Assembly (NCBI GenBank): GCA_050261335.1
Contig: JBLNDE010000058.1
Span: 102,968-166,967, forward strand
Direction of reading: 5' to 3'
From: Bacillota bacterium
GTDB taxonomy: Bacteria > Bacillota > SHA-98 > UBA4971
DNA: 64,000 bases
The position numbers were made by a program, and so were the translations under genes. This document shows positions 18,663 through 25,227 of this stretch, one piece after another. The notes under the pieces are model-generated. The model saw nothing but the letters and a program-made list of their open reading frames with translations, did not search any database and was not told the DNA's origin. Positions within the stretch are counted from its first letter, which is position 1. Each line of letters opens with the position of its first letter.

Positions 18663-19898
18663 TCATGCCTCCGTTTCGTTTGTCGGCTCGGACGTTTCGC
18701 CGCCCGCCGTGCCACTCGTGGCGGATGCAGGCATGGCCACCGTACCGCGCGTCATGAGCGTCGCCCGGATCACGATTTTGATCGGGGCGGGGTCGACCCC
18801 GTTGATGATATCCACGAGCCTGCGGGCGGCGATGGAACCAAGCTGCTGCTTTGGGATGTGCATCGTTGTGAGCGGGGGGTGGGTGTGGCTCGCCACCTGT
18901 ATGTCGTCGAACCCGATGACGGACACTTCGTCCGGCACCCTGATGCCGCGCTCGTGGAGAGCCTTGAGCACACCGAGCGCGGTCATGTCGTTGTCCGCGA
19001 ATATGGCGGTTGGCGACTGAGGCAGGTCCATCAGACGGAGCGTTCCCTCATATCCGATCTGCGGGCCATGCGTGTCAACGGACTCGGAGAACACCACCAA
19101 TCTACGATGGGACGGCAGGCGAAGTTCGTCAAGGGCCTTCGTATAACCAGCATAACGCTGCGCAAGGGAGATGTGCGACTGCGGCCCACCGACGAAAGCG
19201 ATCCGGCGGTGGCCGGAGCGGTATAGGTGCTCTATCGCAGACCTGGTCGCGGCCTCGTTGTCCGAGACCACGCAGTCTACAGGCTCGCCCGGAAGCTCGT
19301 TATCCACGAGGACCACCGGGATCCCACGCTCGCGGGCTGTCCGGGCCACCTGCGGGTGAACGTCGCATCCCACGAGGAGCAGTCCTCTGAAGCCGCTGCA
19401 GCCGTTCTCGCCTGCCTGATCAGCGAAGAGACCGCTGTTATCGCCGGCGCCGTCTATGCTTCGAAGGAAGACCCGGTAGCCCAGGTTCTGCAGGCTTTCC
19501 TCGATGCCCGCCACTACTGCGCCGTAGAACGGGTCGGTCACCAGGGACGAAAGCCGCCTGTTGAATACGATGCCGATGCTTGCGCTCAAGCCTCCAGACA
19601 CGCCGGCGCCCGCACCCACACTCGCGCCCGCGCCGCCGCCACTGCCACTGCTACTGGCGCCGCTGTTGCCGCTGCTATTGCCGGTGCTATTGCGGCCGCC
19701 GCCCGCGCCGTGCCATGCCCTGGGCCCCGTAGCCGCGTCCACCGCCTCCGCGCGTGGACGGTAGCCCAGTGACCGCGCTACGTTCAGGACGCGGGAACGG
19801 GTCCGCTCGCTGATCCGCCCTTTCCGGCTGAGGGCTCGTGATGCCGTGGAAGGCGAGACTCCGGCCTGCCTCGCGATCTCTCGAATGGTCGTGTCCAC
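18663..19898 (-). CDS. LacI-family transcriptional regulator with Gly/Ser-rich insertion
   Basis: N-terminal HTH (MDTTIREIARQAGVSPSTASRALS) and periplasmic-binding-fold C-terminal domain; ~60-aa G/S/A low-complexity insert after the HTH. Confidence 0.85.
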   Translation of the reverse strand: MDTTIREIARQAGVSPSTASRALSRKGRISERTRSRVLNVARSLGYRPRAEAVDAATGPRAWHGAGGGRNSTGNSSGNSGASSSGSGGGAGASVGAGAGVSGGLSASIGIVFNRRLSSLVTDPFYGAVVAGIEESLQNLGYRVFLRSIDGAGDNSGLFADQAGENGCSGFRGLLLVGCDVHPQVARTARERGIPVVLVDNELPGEPVDCVVSDNEAATRSAIEHLYRSGHRRIAFVGGPQSHISLAQRYAGYTKALDELRLPSHRRLVVFSESVDTHGPQIGYEGTLRLMDLPQSPTAIFADNDMTALGVLKALHERGIRVPDEVSVIGFDDIQVASHTHPPLTTMHIPKQQLGSIAARRLVDIINGVDPAPIKIVIRATLMTRGTVAMPASATSGTAGGETSEPTNETEA

Positions 19899-20230: not shown

Positions 20231-20303
20231 AGGGAGACGGCTCGTCCCTGGTACTGCTCTGTCAGATACGAAATGCCATCCGGTCTTGGGGGTCTGGCGG
20301 GCT
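20231..20303 (+). repeat. conserved ~65-nt leader element, copy 1 (second copy at 23199-23279)
   Basis: gtactgctctgtcagatacgaaatgccatccggtcttgggggtctggcgggcttgtctggcagg vs gtactgctttgccagatacgaaataccacccggcctcgcgggcctggcgggtttgtctg...: ~85% identity; flanks not similar. Confidence 0.7.
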
Positions 20304-20350
20304 TGTCTGGCAGGTCGGCTCCTGGCCGTGGTGGCCGTGGTGGCCATGGT
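20304..20350 (+). repeat. short tandem repeat (GGCCGTGGT)x~4-5 between leader 1 and array 1
   Basis: tggccgtggtggccgtggtggccatggtggccgtggtggccc; absent from the second copy. Confidence 0.8.
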
Positions 20351-20389
20351 GGCCGTGGTGGCCCTTGACCGTGCAGTTCCTTGGAAACC

Positions 20390-20860
20390 CGTGATGTACG
20401 GAACGGGTGCCGCAGAAAGAGTGATGTACGTCAGCAGTCGGTTCCGATGCGTAACGCAAGGAACGGGTAAGGCCGGGACCGGTGACGTACATCAGCGGAT
20501 GGCGCTCAATGATGACGTAGGGAACAGCTCAGGGGGAACCCGTGATGTACGTCACCCGTCCCGCTTCGACGAGTGACGTACGGAACGATTTATGGAGAAC
20601 CCGTGATGTGGGGAACGGATAAGGCGGGAACGCTGATGTACGTCACCGATTGGCTCCCGATTCGTGACGTATGGAACGGGAAGAGCCAGAGGAGTGACGA
20701 GCGTCATCCTTCCCCTTGCATGCGTGACACAGGGAACGGGTAAGGTCCGGACCAGTGATGTACATCAGCGGATGGCGCTCAATGATGACGTAGGGAACCG
20801 TTGAGGACGGACCCGTGACGTACGTCAGCCGTCGGCTCTGGTGACGGCACTATCAGGCGC
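20390..20860 (+). repeat. array 1: ~15 direct repeats with ~30-31-nt period, each starting GTGAYGTAYG; alternating palindromic (GTGAYGTACGTCAC) and GGAAC-type (GTGACGTAnGGAACGGG) units
   Basis: Unit starts near 20390, 20420, 20451, 20481, 20512, 20541, 20571, 20602, 20633, 20662, 20693, 20722, 20753, 20784, 20813; ~66-nt segment duplicated within the array (20461-20525 vs 20727-20795). Confidence 0.85.
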
Positions 20861-20929
20861 TCCATATGTGACAGAGCAGTACTAAGTGAGGGTTCGTTGG
20901 CTCTTCCCCGTTTTCTAGCGGCTGCTGGG

Positions 20930-21045
20930 CTCTCGGTGTTGCACTCGGAGACGGCGCTCTGAGCCGGGCGCGCTTCGCCAAAACCTGGCTCGCCGGGCCA
21001 GTCGCCGGGTCTTGACACCTCTCGTGCAGTCACCGCGAGCCCCTC
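20930..21045. repeat. dispersed intergenic repeat family 2, copy A (core GTTGCACTCGGAGACGGCGC...GGGCGCGCTTCGCCAA)
   Basis: Shares 60-120 nt of similarity with copies at 56280-56410, 49398-49560, 40970-41070 and 25487-25580. Confidence 0.55.
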
Positions 21046-21293: not shown

Positions 21294-22148
21294 GTGAGCG
21301 AAGTGATCATTAGCGCAAGCCGCAGGACTGACATACCGAAGTTCTACGCCGAGTGGTTCATGGACCGCGTTCGCGCCGGCCGCTGCGCGTGTCCGAATCC
21401 CTTCAATCCGAAGCAGGTCTTCGAGGTGTCCCTGCGGCCCGAGGACGTTGACGTGATCGTCTTCTGGAGCAAGGACCCGGATCCCCTCCTGGCGCACCTG
21501 GACGAGCTCGACCGCAGGGGGTTCAGGTACTACTTCCAGTTCACCCTGAACGGCTATCCGTCGTTCCTGGAGCCGGGCGTGCCGCCGCTGGAGAAGACCT
21601 TCGCGACGTTCAGGCGCCTGTCGGAGGCGGTCTCTCCTGAAAGGGTGATCTGGCGCTACGACCCGATAGTGCTCACCAGCGTGACTGATGCTTCATATCA
21701 CGAGCGCCGGTTCCGGGAGATCGCAACGGCCCTCGCGGGCAGAACCAGGCGCGTGGTCATAAGCCTCGTCGACGATTATCGGGGCTCGCGCGCTCGCCTC
21801 GCCCGGCTGGCAGGCCAGGGCATACAGGTAGCGCAGCGATGCAGCGCCGATGACCCGCCCACGGCAGGCCTCCTTGCGACTATGGCGCGCGTCGCCGTCG
21901 AGTCGGACATGGAGATCGTGACCTGCGCTGAGGAGAAGGGCCTCGAAAGCCTCGGGATCAAGCCCGGCAAGTGCATCGACGACGAGTACATCGCCCGCGT
22001 TTTCGGCATCCGCGTCCCGGGCAAGAAGGACCCCGGCCAGCGCGCGGCATGCGGCTGCGTCGTGAGCAGGGATATCGGCGTGTACGGCACGTGCCGGCAT
22101 GGTTGCCTCTACTGCTACGCTTCCGCAACCGTCCCGCAACTTTCTTGA
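21294..22148 (+). CDS. DUF1848-family protein with C-terminal Cys cluster (possible Fe-S enzyme)
   Basis: N-terminal ISASRRTDIPKFYAEWF characteristic of DUF1848; C-terminal CGCVVSRDIGVYGTCRHGCLYC; GTG start; candidate -10 TAGAAT at ~21243. Confidence 0.65.
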   Translation: MSEVIISASRRTDIPKFYAEWFMDRVRAGRCACPNPFNPKQVFEVSLRPEDVDVIVFWSKDPDPLLAHLDELDRRGFRYYFQFTLNGYPSFLEPGVPPLEKTFATFRRLSEAVSPERVIWRYDPIVLTSVTDASYHERRFREIATALAGRTRRVVISLVDDYRGSRARLARLAGQGIQVAQRCSADDPPTAGLLATMARVAVESDMEIVTCAEEKGLESLGIKPGKCIDDEYIARVFGIRVPGKKDPGQRAACGCVVSRDIGVYGTCRHGCLYCYASATVPQLS

Positions 22149-22167
22149 CAACTGGGGTCCGGTAGTC

Positions 22168-22205
22168 CTAGAATAAAGGCGGCGATCATATATATGTAGC
22201 ATGCA
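22168..22205 (+). promoter_or_regulatory. AT-rich imperfect palindrome (ATATATGTAGCATGCATATAT) plus TAGAAT element upstream of the padR-like gene; candidate autoregulatory operator/promoter
   Basis: Only strongly AT-rich stretch in the local region, centred on GCATGC, immediately upstream of RBS AGGGAG. Confidence 0.35.
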
Positions 22206-22224
22206 TATATAGGGAGCGATCAGA

Positions 22225-22644
22225 ATGTGCAACGATGATCGGGACCGGTGCCACTCCAACGGGTCGAGGGCCCACAGGTGCGACTGCGCAGGTTCGCGGG
22301 TCGAGCGCTTCATCGAGCCGTGCCTGCTCTTGCTCCTGCTCGAGAAGCCTGCGCACGGGTACGACCTGATGGAACGGCTCAGGGAATTCGGGTTCGATGC
22401 CGAAGACCAGGACCCCGGCATGGTATACCGCAACCTTCGGCGCCTCGAACACCAGGGCATGGTCGAATCCGAGTGGGACACATCCGGGCCTGGCCCCGCA
22501 AAGCGCCTCTACCAGGTCACAGCGGAAGGTCGCGACTTACTTCAGGCGTGGAGCGCGGTCATCAGGCGGAACAAGGCGACCCTCGAGGAATTCCTCGAAC
22601 GTTACGAAGCTCTGGCAGGACGATCCGATACTCCCTCCGGATGA
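22225..22644 (+). CDS. PadR-family transcriptional regulator with Cys/His-rich N-terminal extension
   Basis: Winged-helix PadR core (LLLLLLEKPAHGYDLMERL...MVYRNLRRLEHQGMVESEW...KRLYQVTAEGR); N-terminus MCNDDRDRCHSNGSRAHRCDCAG; AGGGAG RBS. Confidence 0.75.
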   Translation: MCNDDRDRCHSNGSRAHRCDCAGSRVERFIEPCLLLLLLEKPAHGYDLMERLREFGFDAEDQDPGMVYRNLRRLEHQGMVESEWDTSGPGPAKRLYQVTAEGRDLLQAWSAVIRRNKATLEEFLERYEALAGRSDTPSG

Positions 22645-22885
22645 CTCCCGCTTCCTCATCGCGTATGGTAAACGTGGTACACGGGATGTGGGGATGCGCG
22701 TCTTTGGCAAAGGGCTGGCTTTGGAGCCGGCTTCCAGAAAAGCGCCCCACGACTCCTGCCGGGCGGTGCTGCGGGTGGCGGGGGAGGACGAATTTCCAGC
22801 TTGGGGCCAGAGAAGGTGGCCAATCTGAAGGGCTTATCCCTAAGGGCGAGACCCGGAAGGCGGGCATGGAAAGGAGGGGGAGGAC

Positions 22886-23107
22886 GTGATGTGTTGTGAA
22901 GGACACACTTACCATCATGGTGCAAGGGAGCATGCGGGCGGAGGATGCTGCTGCCATGCGGAGCCACGATATTTCCATAGGCGCTTCTTTTCGCGCGAGG
23001 AGACCCTTGGGATGCTCAAGGACTACCTCGAAGACCTGAGGGCCGAGGTGCGCGAGGTCGAGAGGCGGATAGAGTGCCTCGAGAAGGACGCTCATAAAGA
23101 GGAGTAG
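22886..23107 (+). CDS. DUF5320-family small protein (Cys/His-rich N-terminus plus coiled coil)
   Basis: MMCCEGHTYHHGAREHAGGGCCCH...RRFFSREETLGMLKDYLEDLRAEVREVERRIECLEK; strong RBS AGGAGGGGGAGG. Confidence 0.6.
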   Translation: MMCCEGHTYHHGAREHAGGGCCCHAEPRYFHRRFFSREETLGMLKDYLEDLRAEVREVERRIECLEKDAHKEE

Positions 23108-23198
23108 GGTGGCATCTCTTCACGGAAGGCGGCCCGCACATGTGTTGGTTTGCGTATGCATTGAGTCGTTGGCGGGCCGCCTGTCACGTTTTGGCCTA

Positions 23199-23279
23199 GT
23201 ACTGCTTTGCCAGATACGAAATACCACCCGGCCTCGCGGGCCTGGCGGGTTTGTCTGCGTCTGGCAGGGGGGGCGCCGG
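23199..23279 (+). repeat. conserved leader element, copy 2
   Basis: See 20231-20303. Confidence 0.7.
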
Positions 23280-23352
23280 GGAGGGATGGAGCGACTCGTG
23301 GTCTTGGTGACCCTTGACAGCGTGGCTCCCGGAAGACCGTTCCCGGAAGACC

Positions 23353-23895
23353 CGTGATGTGCTGAAGGGGTAGTACGGAAAGAGTGACGCACGGTACCCG
23401 TCCCGTTGCACGCGTGACACAGGGAACCGGTGAGGACAGGACTAGTGCTGTACATCAGCGGACGGCTCCCAAGCGTAACGTGCAGAACGCTTGGGAAACA
23501 ACCCGTGATGTGCGTCACCCGTCCCGGTTCGAGAGTGACGTATGGAAGACTTCGCGGTGGAGCCGTGACGCAGGGAACGAATAGGGTGGCAGTGATGATG
23601 CACGTCACTGATCAGGCGCGGATGCGTGACGTGCGGAACACTTCATGAGGAACACGTGACGGAGGGAACGGGTAAGGCGGGAAGGATGACGTACGTCACG
23701 GATCGGGTCCTGATGCGTGACGCGCGGAACGGGAAGAGCCTGACCAGTGACGTAGGTCACGCGTTCCCTGGCACATGTGATGTTGGAAACGGGTAGGGCC
23801 GTGACGGGTGAGGTGCGTCACCCGATAGCTGTCAACGATCACGTGGGGAACGCTTAGTGAAACACCCGTGACCTACGTCAACCGTCAACTTCCAG
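23353..23895 (+). repeat. array 2: ~18 direct repeats with ~30-nt period, same GTGAYG-initiated repeat family as array 1
   Basis: Unit starts near 23353, 23384, 23414, 23445, 23475, 23505, 23535, 23565, 23592, 23626, 23656, 23687, 23716, 23746, 23776, 23800, 23842, 23867; includes palindromic units (GTGATGTGCGTCACCC, TGACGTACGTCAC) and GGAAC-type units. Confidence 0.85.
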
Positions 23896-23950
23896 GGCCA
23901 TCGAACGGCGGGAGCGGGGGAGCCGTCGGTTTTCCGCGTTCAAAGAGCGA

Positions 23951-24487
23951 ATGGTCTTCCCAGCGGACTCGAAATGGGCGCACTGTCCAGACAGGGGGTG
24001 GACTGTTACGTTCACGTCGACTACATATACAATCGCTATTGTGTTTTTCCTCATCTCATTCGCGAAGGACCGCGACAGGACCCGCACGGCCTTACGTAAG
24101 TCCCTCGCCGCGTTTCTCGGTATCCTTCCTGACTTCGCGGCGGTGCTGGCCGTTGTTGGGCTTGTTCTGACGTTCCTGTCCCCGACGACAGTGGCCGGAC
24201 TCATAGGGGCGGGGACCGGGTTTGTCGGGATGATCATCACCTCGCTCATAGGCGCCGTCACCCTGATCCCGGGTTTTGTCGCTTTCCCGCTCGCTAAGTC
24301 CCTCCTTGAACGCGGCGCCGGGATCGCCCAGATAGCAGTGTTTGTGTCCACGCTCATGATGGTCGGCTTTGTGACCGCACCTCTTGAGATCCGCTACTTC
24401 GGCAGGAAGGTCACGCTCCTCAGGAACGGTCTCGCATACCTGTATTCCTTCATAGTGGCCTTCATCATAAGGGTGGTGGTTAAGTGA
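23951..24487 (+). CDS. permease (DUF318/PF03773), first subunit of a split two-component membrane permease
   Basis: Hydrophobic multi-TM ORF; stop overlaps GTG start of second half (GTGA); true start may be downstream of 23951. Confidence 0.6.
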   Translation: MVFPADSKWAHCPDRGWTVTFTSTTYTIAIVFFLISFAKDRDRTRTALRKSLAAFLGILPDFAAVLAVVGLVLTFLSPTTVAGLIGAGTGFVGMIITSLIGAVTLIPGFVAFPLAKSLLERGAGIAQIAVFVSTLMMVGFVTAPLEIRYFGRKVTLLRNGLAYLYSFIVAFIIRVVVK

Positions 24488-25227
24488 GCCGCTCACTGCA
24501 CGATGATCCACCACGCGAGAGTAGCCCGGCCAGTGCTATGGTAACCGGCGATATCAGCCCGAGGCCGGGGGTGGCACCGGCCTCGGACACCGCGGACGCC
24601 GCGAATTGCGCCACGGGGGGCGGCCGCCCCGTAGCGGCGCACAGAACAGCGGCGCACAGAACGATTGGCACGATGGGCCGGAGCCGGCTGGCGGCGGTCG
24701 CGAGGGTGGCCCTCCGCTACAGGGTGTTTCTCCTCATCATAGCCGCCGACGCAGTGATCTGGGCGGTTCGTCCCAGCGCCGGAACGGCGGTGTTCGAGCG
24801 CACGCTGTCCAATTTCGCTGAAATGGCGGCTGTCCTACCGCCGATCTTTCTCTTGATCGGCCTGTTGGATGTCTGGGTCCCGAGGGAGACTCTCATGCGG
24901 TTTCTCGGCGATAGATCCGGGCTCCTTGGGGTCGCCATCAGCATTGTCCTTGGAGCTGTGGCCGCAGGTCCTCTCTACGCCGCCTTCCCGGTGGCGGCCA
25001 TCATGATGAGAAAAGGTGCTAAGTTCTCCAATGTGACCGTGTTCCTCGGCTCCTGGTCCACCCTGAAGATCCCCATGGCTCTCTTCGAGGCATCGGCGCT
25101 CGGCGCCCGTTTCGCCATCACGCGCTGGATCGCGAGCGTGCTCGGGGTTGCTGCAATGGCCGTAATCATCGACCGCGCCGTCACTAAGGACGAGAAACGT
25201 GCGGTGTACACTCGGCATGAGGTCTGA
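24484..25227 (+). CDS. permease (DUF318/PF03773), second subunit of the split permease
   Basis: Multi-TM C-terminal region resembling predicted-permease family; N-terminal 60 aa low-complexity, alternative start ATG ~24673. Confidence 0.6.
   Translation: MSRSLHDDPPRESSPASAMVTGDISPRPGVAPASDTADAANCATGGGRPVAAHRTAAHRTIGTMGRSRLAAVARVALRYRVFLLIIAADAVIWAVRPSAGTAVFERTLSNFAEMAAVLPPIFLLIGLLDVWVPRETLMRFLGDRSGLLGVAISIVLGAVAAGPLYAAFPVAAIMMRKGAKFSNVTVFLGSWSTLKIPMALFEASALGARFAITRWIASVLGVAAMAVIIDRAVTKDEKRAVYTRHEV

What the first reader, a model, noticed from the sequence alone, without database searches (positions are those of the whole stretch)
21294..23107. Cassette proteins share a Cys/His-cluster theme
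The three genes enclosed by the arrays each carry Cys/His-rich segments. DUF1848 has a C-terminal CGC...C...CxxC cluster. The PadR N-terminus reads MCNDDRDRCHSNGSRAHRCDC before a normal winged-helix core. The DUF5320 N-terminus reads MMCCEGHTYHHGAREHAGGGCCCH before a coiled coil. This suggests a metal- or redox-responsive regulatory unit. PadR and DUF5320 are separated by an unusual 240-nt spacer rather than abutting.
Basis: partly seen in the sequence, partly recalled or inferred. Interest (0 to 1): 0.6.

Follow-up and report, generated by a model that had tools for sequence, protein, structure and literature searches.

The report
Cys-tailed PadR metal-efflux operon candidate
Two of the three genes (a PadR repressor with a cysteine-rich tail and a small cysteine/histidine-rich coiled-coil protein) belong with a downstream split permease to a widespread, undescribed, self-regulated operon that most likely senses and exports a metal. 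The third gene (DUF1848) is an unrelated iron-sulfur-type enzyme that happens to sit next door.

Summary
The Cys/His-rich segments are real and none is a start-site artefact.

- **PadR tail.** The tail MCx6Cx9CxC plus Cys33 is conserved in orthologues (C2 46, C9 37, C19 45, C21 51, C33 62 of 64).
- **Small ORF.** It belongs to a family of about 65-aa proteins (MCC..H..H..CCC..RRFxSxEE + coiled coil; 83 representatives). It is not a Pfam DUF5320 member; only the coiled coil resembles that family.
- **DUF1848.** Its 8 cysteines, including CX3CX2C, are invariant across its family, so they look like an enzyme feature.
- **Synteny in 80 genomes.** PadR sits next to a split ArsP-family permease in 38 loci and next to the small protein in 30. 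DUF1848 is adjacent only in the 2 closest relatives.
- **Operator.** A TATATG-N7-CATATA palindrome lies upstream in 63% of loci against 0.8% of controls.
- **Tail type tracks cargo.** Cys-rich tails go with the permease or small protein. His-rich tails go with ABC exporter pairs.
- **Lineage-specific features.** The 240-nt spacer and the flanking arrays vary among close relatives.

Best reading: an autoregulated, probably metal-responsive efflux operon that works like CopY/CopZ or SmtB/SmtA. The metal is unknown and no binding has been shown.

The parts
22145..22174 (+). Sigma-70-like promoter of the PadR operon (TTGACA, 18 nt, TAGAAT). The -35 hexamer overlaps the DUF1848 stop codon.
   Evidence: 11 of 12 consensus matches. 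The same promoter is conserved in L008.
22189..22211 (.). Candidate PadR operator: palindrome TATATATG-TAGCATG-CATATATA (core TATATG-N7-CATATA at 22191-22209), between the -10 box and the RBS.
   Evidence: It is the only perfect match in the 64-kb window. The arms are kept and the centre varies in L006-L009. A match with <=2 mismatches occurs in 50 of 79 orthologue upstream regions against 0.8% of 1,473 control segments.
22225..22644 (+). PadR-s2-type repressor, 139 aa. The Cys-rich N-terminal tail is aa 1-22 (22225-22290). Near-invariant Cys33 lies in helix alpha1.
   Evidence: PF03551, E=6e-18. Orthologue alignment A1. Cys column counts. In the AF2 model the core has high pLDDT (about 84-97 by 10-residue block) and the tail is below 50.
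22645..22888 (+). Lineage-specific intergenic spacer. It contains a roughly 170-nt insertion relative to L008. Only the last ~30 nt, the RBS region, are conserved.
   Evidence: No Rfam hit. RNA fold z=-1.0.
22889..23107 (+). Small Cys/His-rich coiled-coil protein, 72 aa from the ATG (the ORF opens at GTG 22886): MCCEGHTYHHGAREHAGGGCCCH...RRFFSREE plus a heptad coiled coil.
   Evidence: 83 family representatives by phmmer. Alignment A2. It is adjacent to PadR in 30 of 80 loci. No Pfam hit of its own.
23951..24487 (+). Split permease half A (one 4-TMS ArsP-family repeat unit). The start codon is uncertain.
   Evidence: PF03773, 27.2 bits, below the cut-off of 32.3. Conserved next to PadR. No conserved Cys or His.
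24484..25227 (+). Split permease half B. The conserved part starts at ATG 24673. The upstream 63 codons are a low-complexity, lineage-specific stretch.
   Evidence: PF03773, 44.2 bits, above the cut-off. Weak hit to the SO_0444 Cu/Zn efflux model, 20.7 bits against a cut-off of 300..
21294..22148 (+). DUF1848 protein: a neighbour, not part of the conserved unit. It has 8 invariant Cys, including a C-terminal CX3CX2C.
   Evidence: PF08902, E=4e-98. Invariant Cys in A3. Present in 2 of 80 PadR loci. AF2 pLDDT 90.6, alpha/beta-barrel-like, with no close PDB match.

Best explanation
The functional unit is an autoregulated efflux operon. It comprises a short PadR-s2-type repressor with a Cys-rich N-terminal tail, a small Cys/His-rich coiled-coil protein, and a permease of the ArsP family (PF03773) encoded as two half-size genes.

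**Proposed mechanism (inferred, not shown)**
1. The apo-PadR dimer sits on the TATATG-N7-CATATA operator between the -10 box and the RBS, and represses its own operon.
2. A thiophilic metal ion is bound by the flexible tail cysteines (C2, C9, C19, C21) together with Cys33 on helix alpha1. The identity is unknown; Zn, Cd, Cu(I), Ni and Co are candidates.
3. Metal binding pulls on the winged-helix domain and releases the DNA.
4. The small protein dimerises or trimerises through its coiled coil and binds the same metal through MCC/His/CCC. It would act as a buffer or chaperone for the exporter, or for the repressor.
5. The permease removes the metal or a complex of it.

**What lies outside the unit**
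- DUF1848 is an unrelated Fe-S-type enzyme.
- The 240-nt spacer and the flanking repeat arrays are recent, lineage-specific additions.
For: **Shown here**
- **Tail conservation.** Consensus MCx6Cx7CxCxGxRxERFxEPCLLLLL in 64 orthologues. 51 of 80 genomic loci have >=3 tail Cys.
- **Gene linkage despite rearrangement.** Orders seen are PadR-small-permA-permB, small-permA-permB-PadR in Desulfofundulus, and divergent/convergent arrangements in Moorella. The permease is adjacent in 38 of 80 loci, the small protein in 30, either one in 50.
- **Conserved operator.** 63% of upstream regions against 0.8% of controls.
- **Tail class co-varies with cargo.** With Cys>=3 tails, 32 of 51 loci have the permease and 28 of 51 the small protein. 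With His>=5 tails, 9 of 11 loci have heterodimeric ABC exporter pairs (Pfam-confirmed for L024).
- **Links to cation efflux.** CDF cation-efflux genes lie next to PadR in Moorella naiadis and in an Anaerolineae MAG.
- **Fusions of the small-protein module.** It is found fused to an ArsR/SmtB-type HTH (P0107) and to an FmdE domain with CGCGC repeats (P0161).
- **Metallothionein-like family variants.** Examples are (HG)n runs, and 162-aa forms rich in CC and CCCC.

**From the literature**
- PF03773 members include the SO_0444 Cu/Zn efflux protein (PMC3219624) and the organoarsenical exporter ArsP (PMC7176098).

**From my own knowledge**
- Mixed His plus vicinal-Cys composition is typical of metal-binding proteins such as Hpn and metallothioneins, not of redox sensors.
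Against: - No metal binding, DNA binding or transport has been measured.
- The split permease has no conserved Cys or His. It lacks the CSC motif shared by SO_0444 and SaoE (bioRxiv 10.1101/2022.07.06.499078). Its SO_0444 score is far below the cut-off.
- AF2 gives the tail pLDDT below 50, so no preformed metal site is predicted.
- A few loci carry sulfur-trafficking genes such as DsrE/DsrH and CoADR-rhodanese. Others, in Chloroflexota, carry Fe-S-trafficking genes (Mrp/NBP35, NifX-like, ferredoxin). Either fits other signals.
- In this window about 840 nt, including array B, separate the small gene from the permease. Co-transcription here is therefore uncertain.
Confidence: 0.5

Rival explanations
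1. Fe-S-cluster-based redox, O2 or NO sensor. The tail cysteines plus Cys33 would ligate a [4Fe-4S] or [2Fe-2S] cluster, FNR-like: an N-terminal Cys cluster plus one core Cys. Cluster loss or oxidation would switch DNA binding.
For: - Four well-conserved Cys per monomer, of which one lies in the core.
- All named carriers appear to be anaerobes (anaerobic lifestyle from my own knowledge).
- The Chloroflexota branch sits beside ferredoxin, Mrp/NBP35, NifX-like and canonical DUF5320 genes.
Against: - Vicinal CC/CCC motifs and His-rich runs in the partner protein and in some tails are atypical of Fe-S ligation.
- The regulated genes are mostly exporters: split permease, ABC, CDF.
- C2 and C9 are less conserved.
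Confidence: 0.15
2. Sensor of reactive sulfur species or thiol-reactive electrophiles, CstR/SqrR/BigR-like. Tail cysteines would form per- or polysulfide or disulfide bridges that release the repressor. The permease would export a sulfur compound.
For: - DsrE, DsrH, cysteine desulfurase or CoADR-rhodanese genes are near PadR in L002, L005/L033, L078 and L084.
- The permease has no metal-type Cys/His ligands.
- The ArsP family is related to TSUP (TauE-type) transporters (PMC7176098).
Against: - Sulfur genes appear in only a handful of the 80-85 loci.
- His-rich tails and His-rich partner proteins have no role in sulfur sensing.
- The CDF and ArsR-fusion links point to metals.
Confidence: 0.12
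3. Ordinary LmrR-like drug or toxic-organic efflux regulator. The ligand would bind at the dimer interface, and the Cys-rich tail would be incidental or merely structural.
For: - The PadR-s2 architecture and the invariant Trp109 in the C-terminal helix resemble LmrR and bcPadR (PMC3506622).
- ABC exporter pairs are the cargo in one branch.
Against: - The tail is conserved and its class changes with the cargo.
- The co-conserved partner is Cys/His-rich.
Confidence: 0.1
4. One reading: DUF1848, PadR and the small protein form one three-protein metal/redox unit framed by the repeat arrays.
For: - The genes are adjacent in the window and in the two closest relatives.
- All three carry Cys clusters.
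Against: - DUF1848 is present in 2 of 80 loci.
- It is separated from PadR by a nucleotidyltransferase gene and a second small ORF in L008.
- PadR has its own promoter starting at the DUF1848 stop codon.
- DUF1848's Cys are invariant in a very large stand-alone family.
- The arrays are absent or partial in close relatives with the same gene order.
Confidence: 0.04

Closest known systems
CopY/CopZ (copYZAB) copper operon of Enterococcus hirae (from my own knowledge)
   Same: - A winged-helix repressor with a flexible Cys-rich tail containing CxC.
- A small cytoplasmic metal-binding partner encoded next to it.
- An exporter in the same self-regulated operon.
- A palindromic operator near the promoter.
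   Different: - CopY has a BlaI/MecI fold with a C-terminal CxCx4CxC tail. Here the fold is PadR-s2 and the tail is N-terminal, plus one core Cys.
- CopZ is a ferredoxin-fold MxCxxC protein. Here the partner is a coiled coil with MCC/His/CCC.
- The exporters there are P-type ATPases. Here it is a split ArsP-family permease.
- There is no sequence homology.
SmtB/SmtA (ArsR-family sensor plus metallothionein) and Hpn-type His/Cys-rich metal-storage proteins (from my own knowledge)
   Same: - A regulator paired with a small, compositionally Cys/His-rich protein.
- One member of the small-protein family is fused to an ArsR-type HTH.
   Different: - There is no homology to SmtA, BmtA or Hpn.
- The partner here has a conserved RRFxSxEE motif and a coiled coil.
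- The regulator is PadR, not ArsR.
PadR subfamily 2 (LmrR, bcPadR1/2, TM0937; PMC3506622)
   Same: - The size class, the wHTH plus a single long C-terminal helix, and the conserved Trp.
- The operator is a variant of the ATGT/ACAT inverted repeat.
- Regulation of adjacent exporters.
   Different: - A 22-aa Cys-rich N-terminal tail and a near-invariant Cys in alpha1, which no solved homologue covers.
- The alpha3 motif is DPGxVYRNLRRLE instead of EGTLYPxLxRLE.
- The ATGT/ACAT spacer is shorter (about 5 nt) than the canonical 8-10 nt.
Pfam DUF5320 (PF17253)
   Same: - A C-terminal coiled coil (hhalign probability 85%, E=6e-6, 40 columns).
- Small size.
- Canonical DUF5320 genes lie near PadRs of the same subfamily in Chloroflexota.
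   Different: - The window protein has no hit. The best family member scores 23.3 bits against a cut-off of 27.
- The N-terminal GDGTGP...GRGxGYC half is replaced by MCC..H..CCC.
ArsP / SO_0444 permeases (PF03773; TC 2.A.119)
   Same: - A Pfam match, with each half equal to one 4-TMS repeat unit (PMC7176098).
- Family members export Cu/Zn or organoarsenicals (PMC3219624, PMC7176098).
   Different: - It is encoded as two genes.
- It has no CSC or vicinal-Cys motif.
- It scores far below the SO_0444 equivalog cut-off.

Membership tests
PadR family, subfamily 2 (PadR-s2) | PadR wHTH domain above the Pfam gathering score | tested here: met
   PF03551, 65.1 bits against a cut-off of 27, aa 34-107. 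A profile of A1 hits 52 PadR structures.
PadR family, subfamily 2 (PadR-s2) | Short protein with a single long C-terminal dimerisation helix and a conserved Trp (PMC3506622) | tested here: met
   The AF2 model has H100-133 with block pLDDT mostly in the 90s, falling at the C-terminus. W109 is invariant.
PadR family, subfamily 2 (PadR-s2) | Inverted-repeat operator of the ATGT/ACAT type in its own promoter | tested here: met
   TATATG(T)-N-(A)CATATA at 22189-22211, conserved in 63% of orthologue loci against 0.8% of controls. Binding itself was not tested.
DUF5320 (PF17253) | Score above the Pfam gathering threshold | tested here: not met
   No hit at E<=10 for the window protein. 28 of 68 family members hit weakly, the best at 23.3 bits against 27.
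DUF5320 (PF17253) | N-terminal Gly-rich GDGTGP...GRGxGYC region | tested here: not met
   It is absent from the sequence. Compare the canonical members in A4.
DUF5320 (PF17253) | C-terminal coiled coil | tested here: met
   hhalign of A2 against A4: probability 85% over 40 columns. The A2 profile hits only coiled coils in the PDB. Coiled-coil similarity can be convergent.
DUF1848 (PF08902) | Full-length Pfam match and the family's C-terminal Cys cluster | tested here: met
   328.9 bits, profile positions 1-262 of 262. C31, C211, C227, C253, C255, C267, C271 and C274 are invariant in 41 diverse members.
Radical SAM superfamily (considered for DUF1848) | CX3CX2C motif within a Radical_SAM domain and partial TIM barrel | tested here: inconclusive
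SO_0444-type Cu/Zn efflux / ArsP (PF03773) | PF03773 match | tested here: met
   permB 44.2 bits, above the cut-off of 32.3. permA 27.2 bits, below it.
SO_0444-type Cu/Zn efflux / ArsP (PF03773) | Equivalog score and the conserved CSC / vicinal-Cys metal motif | tested here: not met
   20.7 bits against a cut-off of 300. No column has >=30% Cys or His in 38-39 orthologues of either half.
CopY/CopZ-type metalloregulatory operon | Metal-dependent release of the repressor, and metal transfer from the small partner | not testable with these tools
   This needs biochemistry. Only the architecture is analogous, and the folds differ.

The most novel reading that the evidence does not exclude
PadR-s2 proteins with modular N-terminal Cys- or His-rich tails are a previously unrecognised structural family of bacterial metal sensors. 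The tail type specifies the metal and matches the exporter it controls.

The small DUF5320-like coiled-coil proteins would be their cognate metallochaperones or anti-repressors, handing metal to the tail as CopZ does to CopY. Their N-termini mirror the style of the PadR tail:
- MC..CxC tails pair with MCC..CCC partners in Bacillota.
- MPRGRWGRGGG..C tails pair with MPRGDxTGP..GYC partners in Chloroflexota.

If so, this would also give the first functional handle on DUF5320.
Probability: 0.3. Interest if true: 0.75.

Novelty: new variant of a known kind. Interest (0 to 1): 0.55.

Why it matters
**A possible new sensor scaffold.** From my own knowledge, bacterial metal sensing is attributed to a short list of regulator folds: ArsR/SmtB, MerR, CsoR/RcnR, CopY, Fur, DtxR and NikR, plus a few MarR, TetR and Rrf2 cases. 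PadR is not on that list; the Cd-binding Rv3488 is an isolated report.

A conserved PadR subfamily is found across anaerobic Bacillota, Chloroflexota and Atribacterota. Its N-terminal tail changes with the exporter it sits beside. That would add a modular sensor scaffold to the list.

**Testable roles for three uncharacterised groups:**
- an uncharacterised family of small Cys/His-rich proteins;
- their relatives in DUF5320;
- the two-gene ArsP-type permeases, whose homologues matter for acid tolerance and virulence in streptococci. That link is from memory; a search returned related papers but I did not read them.

**A caution for annotation.** A shared 'Cys-rich' look does not make neighbouring genes a unit. 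DUF1848 is a bystander here.

Tried and rejected
- **Start-site artefact for the PadR tail: rejected.** It is the only viable start, an RBS precedes it, and the tail is conserved in orthologues.
- **Small ORF spurious: rejected.** It has 83 family representatives, conserved position and a GGAGG RBS.
- **Small ORF as a DUF5320 member: rejected.** It fails Pfam criteria. Only the coiled coil aligns.
- **Word-indexed homologue search for the small protein: uninformative.** It found only one near-identical protein. The exhaustive phmmer search was needed.
- **Mobile three-gene cassette bounded by arrays: rejected.** L001 keeps the same gene order and flanks with no arrays, and L008 has only array A.
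- **Functional RNA or repeat in the 240-nt spacer: no support.** There is no Rfam hit, no similarity elsewhere, and the fold z-score is -1.0.
- **Structured zinc-knuckle tail: not supported.** AF2 gives pLDDT below 50. This is neutral, because AF2 does not model metals.
- **Defence-system role: not supported.** PadR and the small protein have no PADLOC hits. DUF1848 matches the RT-associated DUF1848 model, but no RT gene was seen among the ORFs listed around it.
- **Literature: nothing found.** I found no paper on DUF5320 or DUF1848 function, or on a Cys-tailed PadR metal sensor.
Full report
**What is there**

- 21294-22148 is a full-length DUF1848 protein (PF08902, E=4e-98).
- 22225-22644 is a PadR protein whose Pfam domain covers only aa 34-107, which leaves a 33-residue N-terminal extension.
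- 22886-23107 has no Pfam match at all, even at E<=10.

Background composition in the window's long ORFs is C 1.5% and H 2.9%.
- The PadR tail has 4 Cys in 21 aa (P=2e-4).
- The small protein's first 24 residues have 10 C+H (P=3e-8). That is more than any of 16,227 background 24-aa windows.

**Are the extensions real?**

PadR has no alternative start before Met49, which would destroy the wHTH. Upstream of the ATG at 22225 lie a GGGAG RBS, a near-consensus promoter (TTGACA-18-TAGAAT, 11 of 12) and a perfect palindrome.

An alignment of 64 orthologues gives the consensus MCxxxxxxCxxxxxxxCxCxGxRxERFxEPCLLLLL. Cys is present at the window's positions as follows:

| Position | Sequences with Cys (of 64) |
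|---|---|
| 2 | 46 |
| 9 | 37 |
| 19 | 45 |
| 21 | 51 |
| 33 | 62 |

That test is passed.

AF2 models the wHTH and the long C-terminal helix well, with high pLDDT (about 84-97 by 10-residue block). It leaves residues 1-22 below 50, meaning a flexible tail in the apo state. Cys33 lies in helix alpha1.

**The small protein**

A word-indexed search found only one near-identical protein. An exhaustive phmmer scan of 1.84 billion representatives found 83 proteins, nearly all 56-75 aa.

Their alignment gives MCCxxxxxHxxxHxxxxxCCCGxxxxxFxRRFxSxEExxxxLExYLxxLxxExxxVEExIxxL. This is a Cys/His-rich head, a conserved RRFxSxEE linker and a heptad coiled coil.
- The family start is MCC, so the real start here is the ATG at 22889.
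- C21 is present in 59 of 68 sequences and C23 in 63 of 68.
- Longer relatives are strikingly metallothionein- or Hpn-like. Examples are (HG)n runs and 162-aa forms full of CC and CCCC.
- Two fusions are informative. P0107 is an ArsR-type HTH (HTH_5, E=1e-11) followed by this module. P0161 is an FmdE domain plus CGCGC repeats plus this module.

*Is it DUF5320?*
- 28 of 68 members give sub-threshold PF17253 hits. The best is 23.3 bits against a cut-off of 27, and the hits cover profile positions 41-99, the C-terminal half.
- A profile-profile comparison with three canonical DUF5320 proteins aligns only the 40-column coiled coil (probability 85%).
- The defining GDGTGP/GRGxGYC head is absent.
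- It is therefore DUF5320-like at best, and not a member.

**What the genes travel with**

The closest relative (L001/L006) is about 92-95% identical in DNA over the genes. It has the order DUF1848, PadR, small protein, two ArsP_1 genes, then CorA.

More distant PadR orthologues keep PadR, optionally the small protein, and the two half-size ArsP_1 genes. They lose DUF1848. In Moorella naiadis the neighbour is a CDF cation-efflux gene.

I fetched 80 genomic loci of the subfamily and scored neighbours within 2.5 kb:

| Neighbour of PadR | Loci (of 80) |
|---|---|
| Split permease | 38 |
| Small protein | 30 |
| Both | 18 |
| Either | 50 |
| CDF | 2 |
| DUF1848 | 2 (only the nearest relatives) |

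- The linkage survives rearrangement. Desulfofundulus has small-permA-permB-PadR. Moorella has permBA divergent from PadR, with the small gene convergent.
- In L008 a nucleotidyltransferase gene and a second small ORF sit between DUF1848 and PadR.
- The conserved unit is therefore PadR, the small protein and the split permease. DUF1848 is a bystander.

**DUF1848 itself**

- It belongs to a very large family, with more than 7,900 homologues at E<=1e-10.
- All eight of its cysteines are invariant: C31, C211, C227, C253, C255, C267, C271 and C274. The last three form CX3CX2C.
- The AF2 model is confident (pLDDT 90.6) and alpha/beta-barrel-like, with only generic barrel matches in the PDB.
- No solved homologue exists.
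- This is the signature of an enzyme with one or two Fe-S clusters, not of a sensor that shares a theme with its neighbours.
- It matches PADLOC's RT-associated DUF1848 model, but no reverse-transcriptase gene was seen among the ORFs listed around it (PMC9226505).

**Regulation**

The palindrome TATATATG-TAGCATG-CATATATA (22189-22211) lies between the -10 box and the RBS. It is the only perfect TATATG-N7-CATATA in the 64-kb window.
- Close relatives keep the arms and vary the centre.
- Across the subfamily, 50 of 79 upstream regions hold a match with <=2 mismatches, against 0.8% of 1,473 control segments from the same loci.
- The carriers include Bacillota, Chloroflexota and Atribacterota.
- Many sites read TATATGT-N5-ACATATA. 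That is the canonical PadR ATGT/ACAT inverted repeat with a shorter spacer (PMC3506622).
- An autoregulated repressor is the straightforward reading.

**The tail behaves like a sensor module**

Classing the 32 residues before the ERFxEPC core gives a clear pattern:

| Tail class | Loci | Neighbours |
|---|---|---|
| >=3 Cys | 51 | split permease 32, small protein 28 |
| >=5 His | 11 | heterodimeric ABC exporter pair 9 (Pfam-confirmed for L024) |
| 1-2 Cys (mostly Chloroflexota, MPRGRWGRGGG..ACPRR) | 15 | Mrp/NBP35, ferredoxin, NifX-like, CoADR-rhodanese, canonical DUF5320 |

**Mechanism**

I commit to a metal-excess-responsive efflux operon. Apo-PadR represses. A thiophilic metal captured by the tail cysteines and Cys33 releases it. 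The small protein buffers or delivers the metal, and the permease exports it.

*Shown:*
- conservation of the tail;
- gene linkage;
- the operator;
- co-variation of tail class with cargo;
- the fusions of the small-protein module.

*Inferred:*
- metal binding, the identity of the metal, allostery, and the partner's role.

*Support from the literature:*
- PF03773 members export Cu/Zn (SO_0444, PMC3219624) and organoarsenicals (ArsP, PMC7176098).
- The ArsP repeat unit is 4 TMS. This fits two half-size genes that each match the first half of the profile.

*Weaknesses:*
- The split permease has no conserved Cys or His and lacks the CSC motif of SO_0444/SaoE (bioRxiv 10.1101/2022.07.06.499078).
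- A minority of loci carry sulfur-trafficking or Fe-S-trafficking genes. Fe-S/redox and reactive-sulfur sensing therefore remain live rivals.

**Spacer and arrays**

PadR-to-small-gene spacing is -1 to 97 nt in the other same-strand loci where the small gene directly follows PadR; in two of them (L059, L071) the genes overlap by 1 nt. It is 240 nt only here and in L001/L006.
- L008 has 73 nt, so this lineage carries an insertion of about 170 nt.
- The inserted DNA has no similarity elsewhere, no Rfam hit and no unusual fold (z=-1.0).

The flanking arrays are 15-16 units of about 30.3 nt. Units begin GTGAYGnnnGGAAC or the palindrome GTGACGTACGTCAC.
- They are real and far above chance: 18 of 20 window matches fall in the two arrays, against an expectation of 2.8.
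- They are variable. L008 has only array A. L001 has neither, and array B corresponds to a clean 638-nt indel (23351-23988).
- They do not define a cassette.

**Comparison with known systems**

Functionally the closest analogues are CopY/CopZ and SmtB/SmtA, in which a Cys-tailed or metal-sensing repressor is paired with a small metal-binding protein and an exporter. Neither is homologous.
- By membership, the regulator is a PadR-s2 protein with an extra tail that no solved structure covers.
- The partner is outside DUF5320.
- The permease is an atypical, split PF03773 member.
- I found no paper describing this subfamily.
- The only PadR-type protein linked to metals that I know of is Rv3488 (PDB 5zhc; the Cd link is from my own knowledge).

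**Verdict**

- It is a new variant of a known kind of system, with moderate interest.

Noticed in passing
window 20391-20845 and 23354-23886: Two arrays of about 15-16 units with a ~30.3-nt period. Units begin GTGAYGnnnGGAAC or the palindrome GTGACGTACGTCAC, with higher-order periods of 61, 91, 121 and 182 nt. There is no Rfam hit. Array A is also in L008 (1876-2283). Both arrays are absent from L001, where array B corresponds to a clean 638-nt indel. Their function is unknown; a protein-binding-site array or a foldback element is possible.
   Followed up: partly
window 20247-20309 / 23195-23257; 20251-20277 vs 20856-20882; 20323-20363: A 63-nt direct repeat (84% identity) precedes each array. 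Array A is bracketed by 27-nt inverted repeats (81% complementary). It is preceded by (TGGCCGTGG)x4.6. The copy at 23195-23257 contains a weak terminator-like hairpin, and a similar stretch is present in L001 (10310-10432).
   Followed up: partly
window 20882-21025; L001 7773-7915 and 13379-13441: A stretch of about 140 nt upstream of DUF1848 occurs inverted at the equivalent place in L001. Part of it occurs again downstream of CorA in L001. This is another small dispersed repeat in these genomes.
   Followed up: no
L008 3458-4326: A nucleotidyltransferase-domain gene (NTP_transf_2/Polbeta) and an overlapping 98-aa ORF are inserted between DUF1848 and the PadR promoter in this relative. The pair could be a toxin-antitoxin module; the second ORF has no Pfam hit.
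   Followed up: partly
window 24488-24672: Other loci have permA and permB overlapping by 4 nt. Here about 185 nt of low-complexity sequence lies between the permA stop and the conserved permB start (ATG 24673). It includes a perfect 15-nt tandem, AGCGGCGCACAGAAC x2, at 24633-24662. It stays in frame from a GTGA overlap at 24484, so the true permB start is ambiguous.
   Followed up: partly
window 21294-22148: DUF1848 matches PADLOC's 'RTasDUF1848' (DRT accessory) model at E=8e-47, but no reverse-transcriptase gene was seen among the ORFs listed around it. The family is huge and mostly stand-alone. Its eight invariant Cys include a C-terminal CX3CX2C, which suggests an uncharacterised Fe-S or radical-type enzyme.
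   Followed up: partly
L081, L083-L085 (PadR N-termini); L082 2402-2734 and L085 7440-7766: Several Chloroflexota PadRs of this subfamily begin MPRGRWGRGGG..GGACPRR. This resembles the MPRGDxTGP..GRxxGYC head of the canonical DUF5320 proteins encoded nearby in L082 and L085. Bacillota PadRs (MC..CxC) pair with MCC..CCC partners. It may be co-variation of the regulator tail and the partner head, but there are only two canonical DUF5320 cases.
   Followed up: partly
window 18663-19898 (minus strand), repeats at 19601-19693: The LacI-type regulator upstream carries a long Gly/Ser/Ala-rich low-complexity insert between its HTH and its sugar-binding core (NSTGNSSGNSGASSSGSGGGAGASVGAGAGVSGG). The insert is encoded by 6-, 12- and 24-nt tandem repeats.
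   Followed up: no
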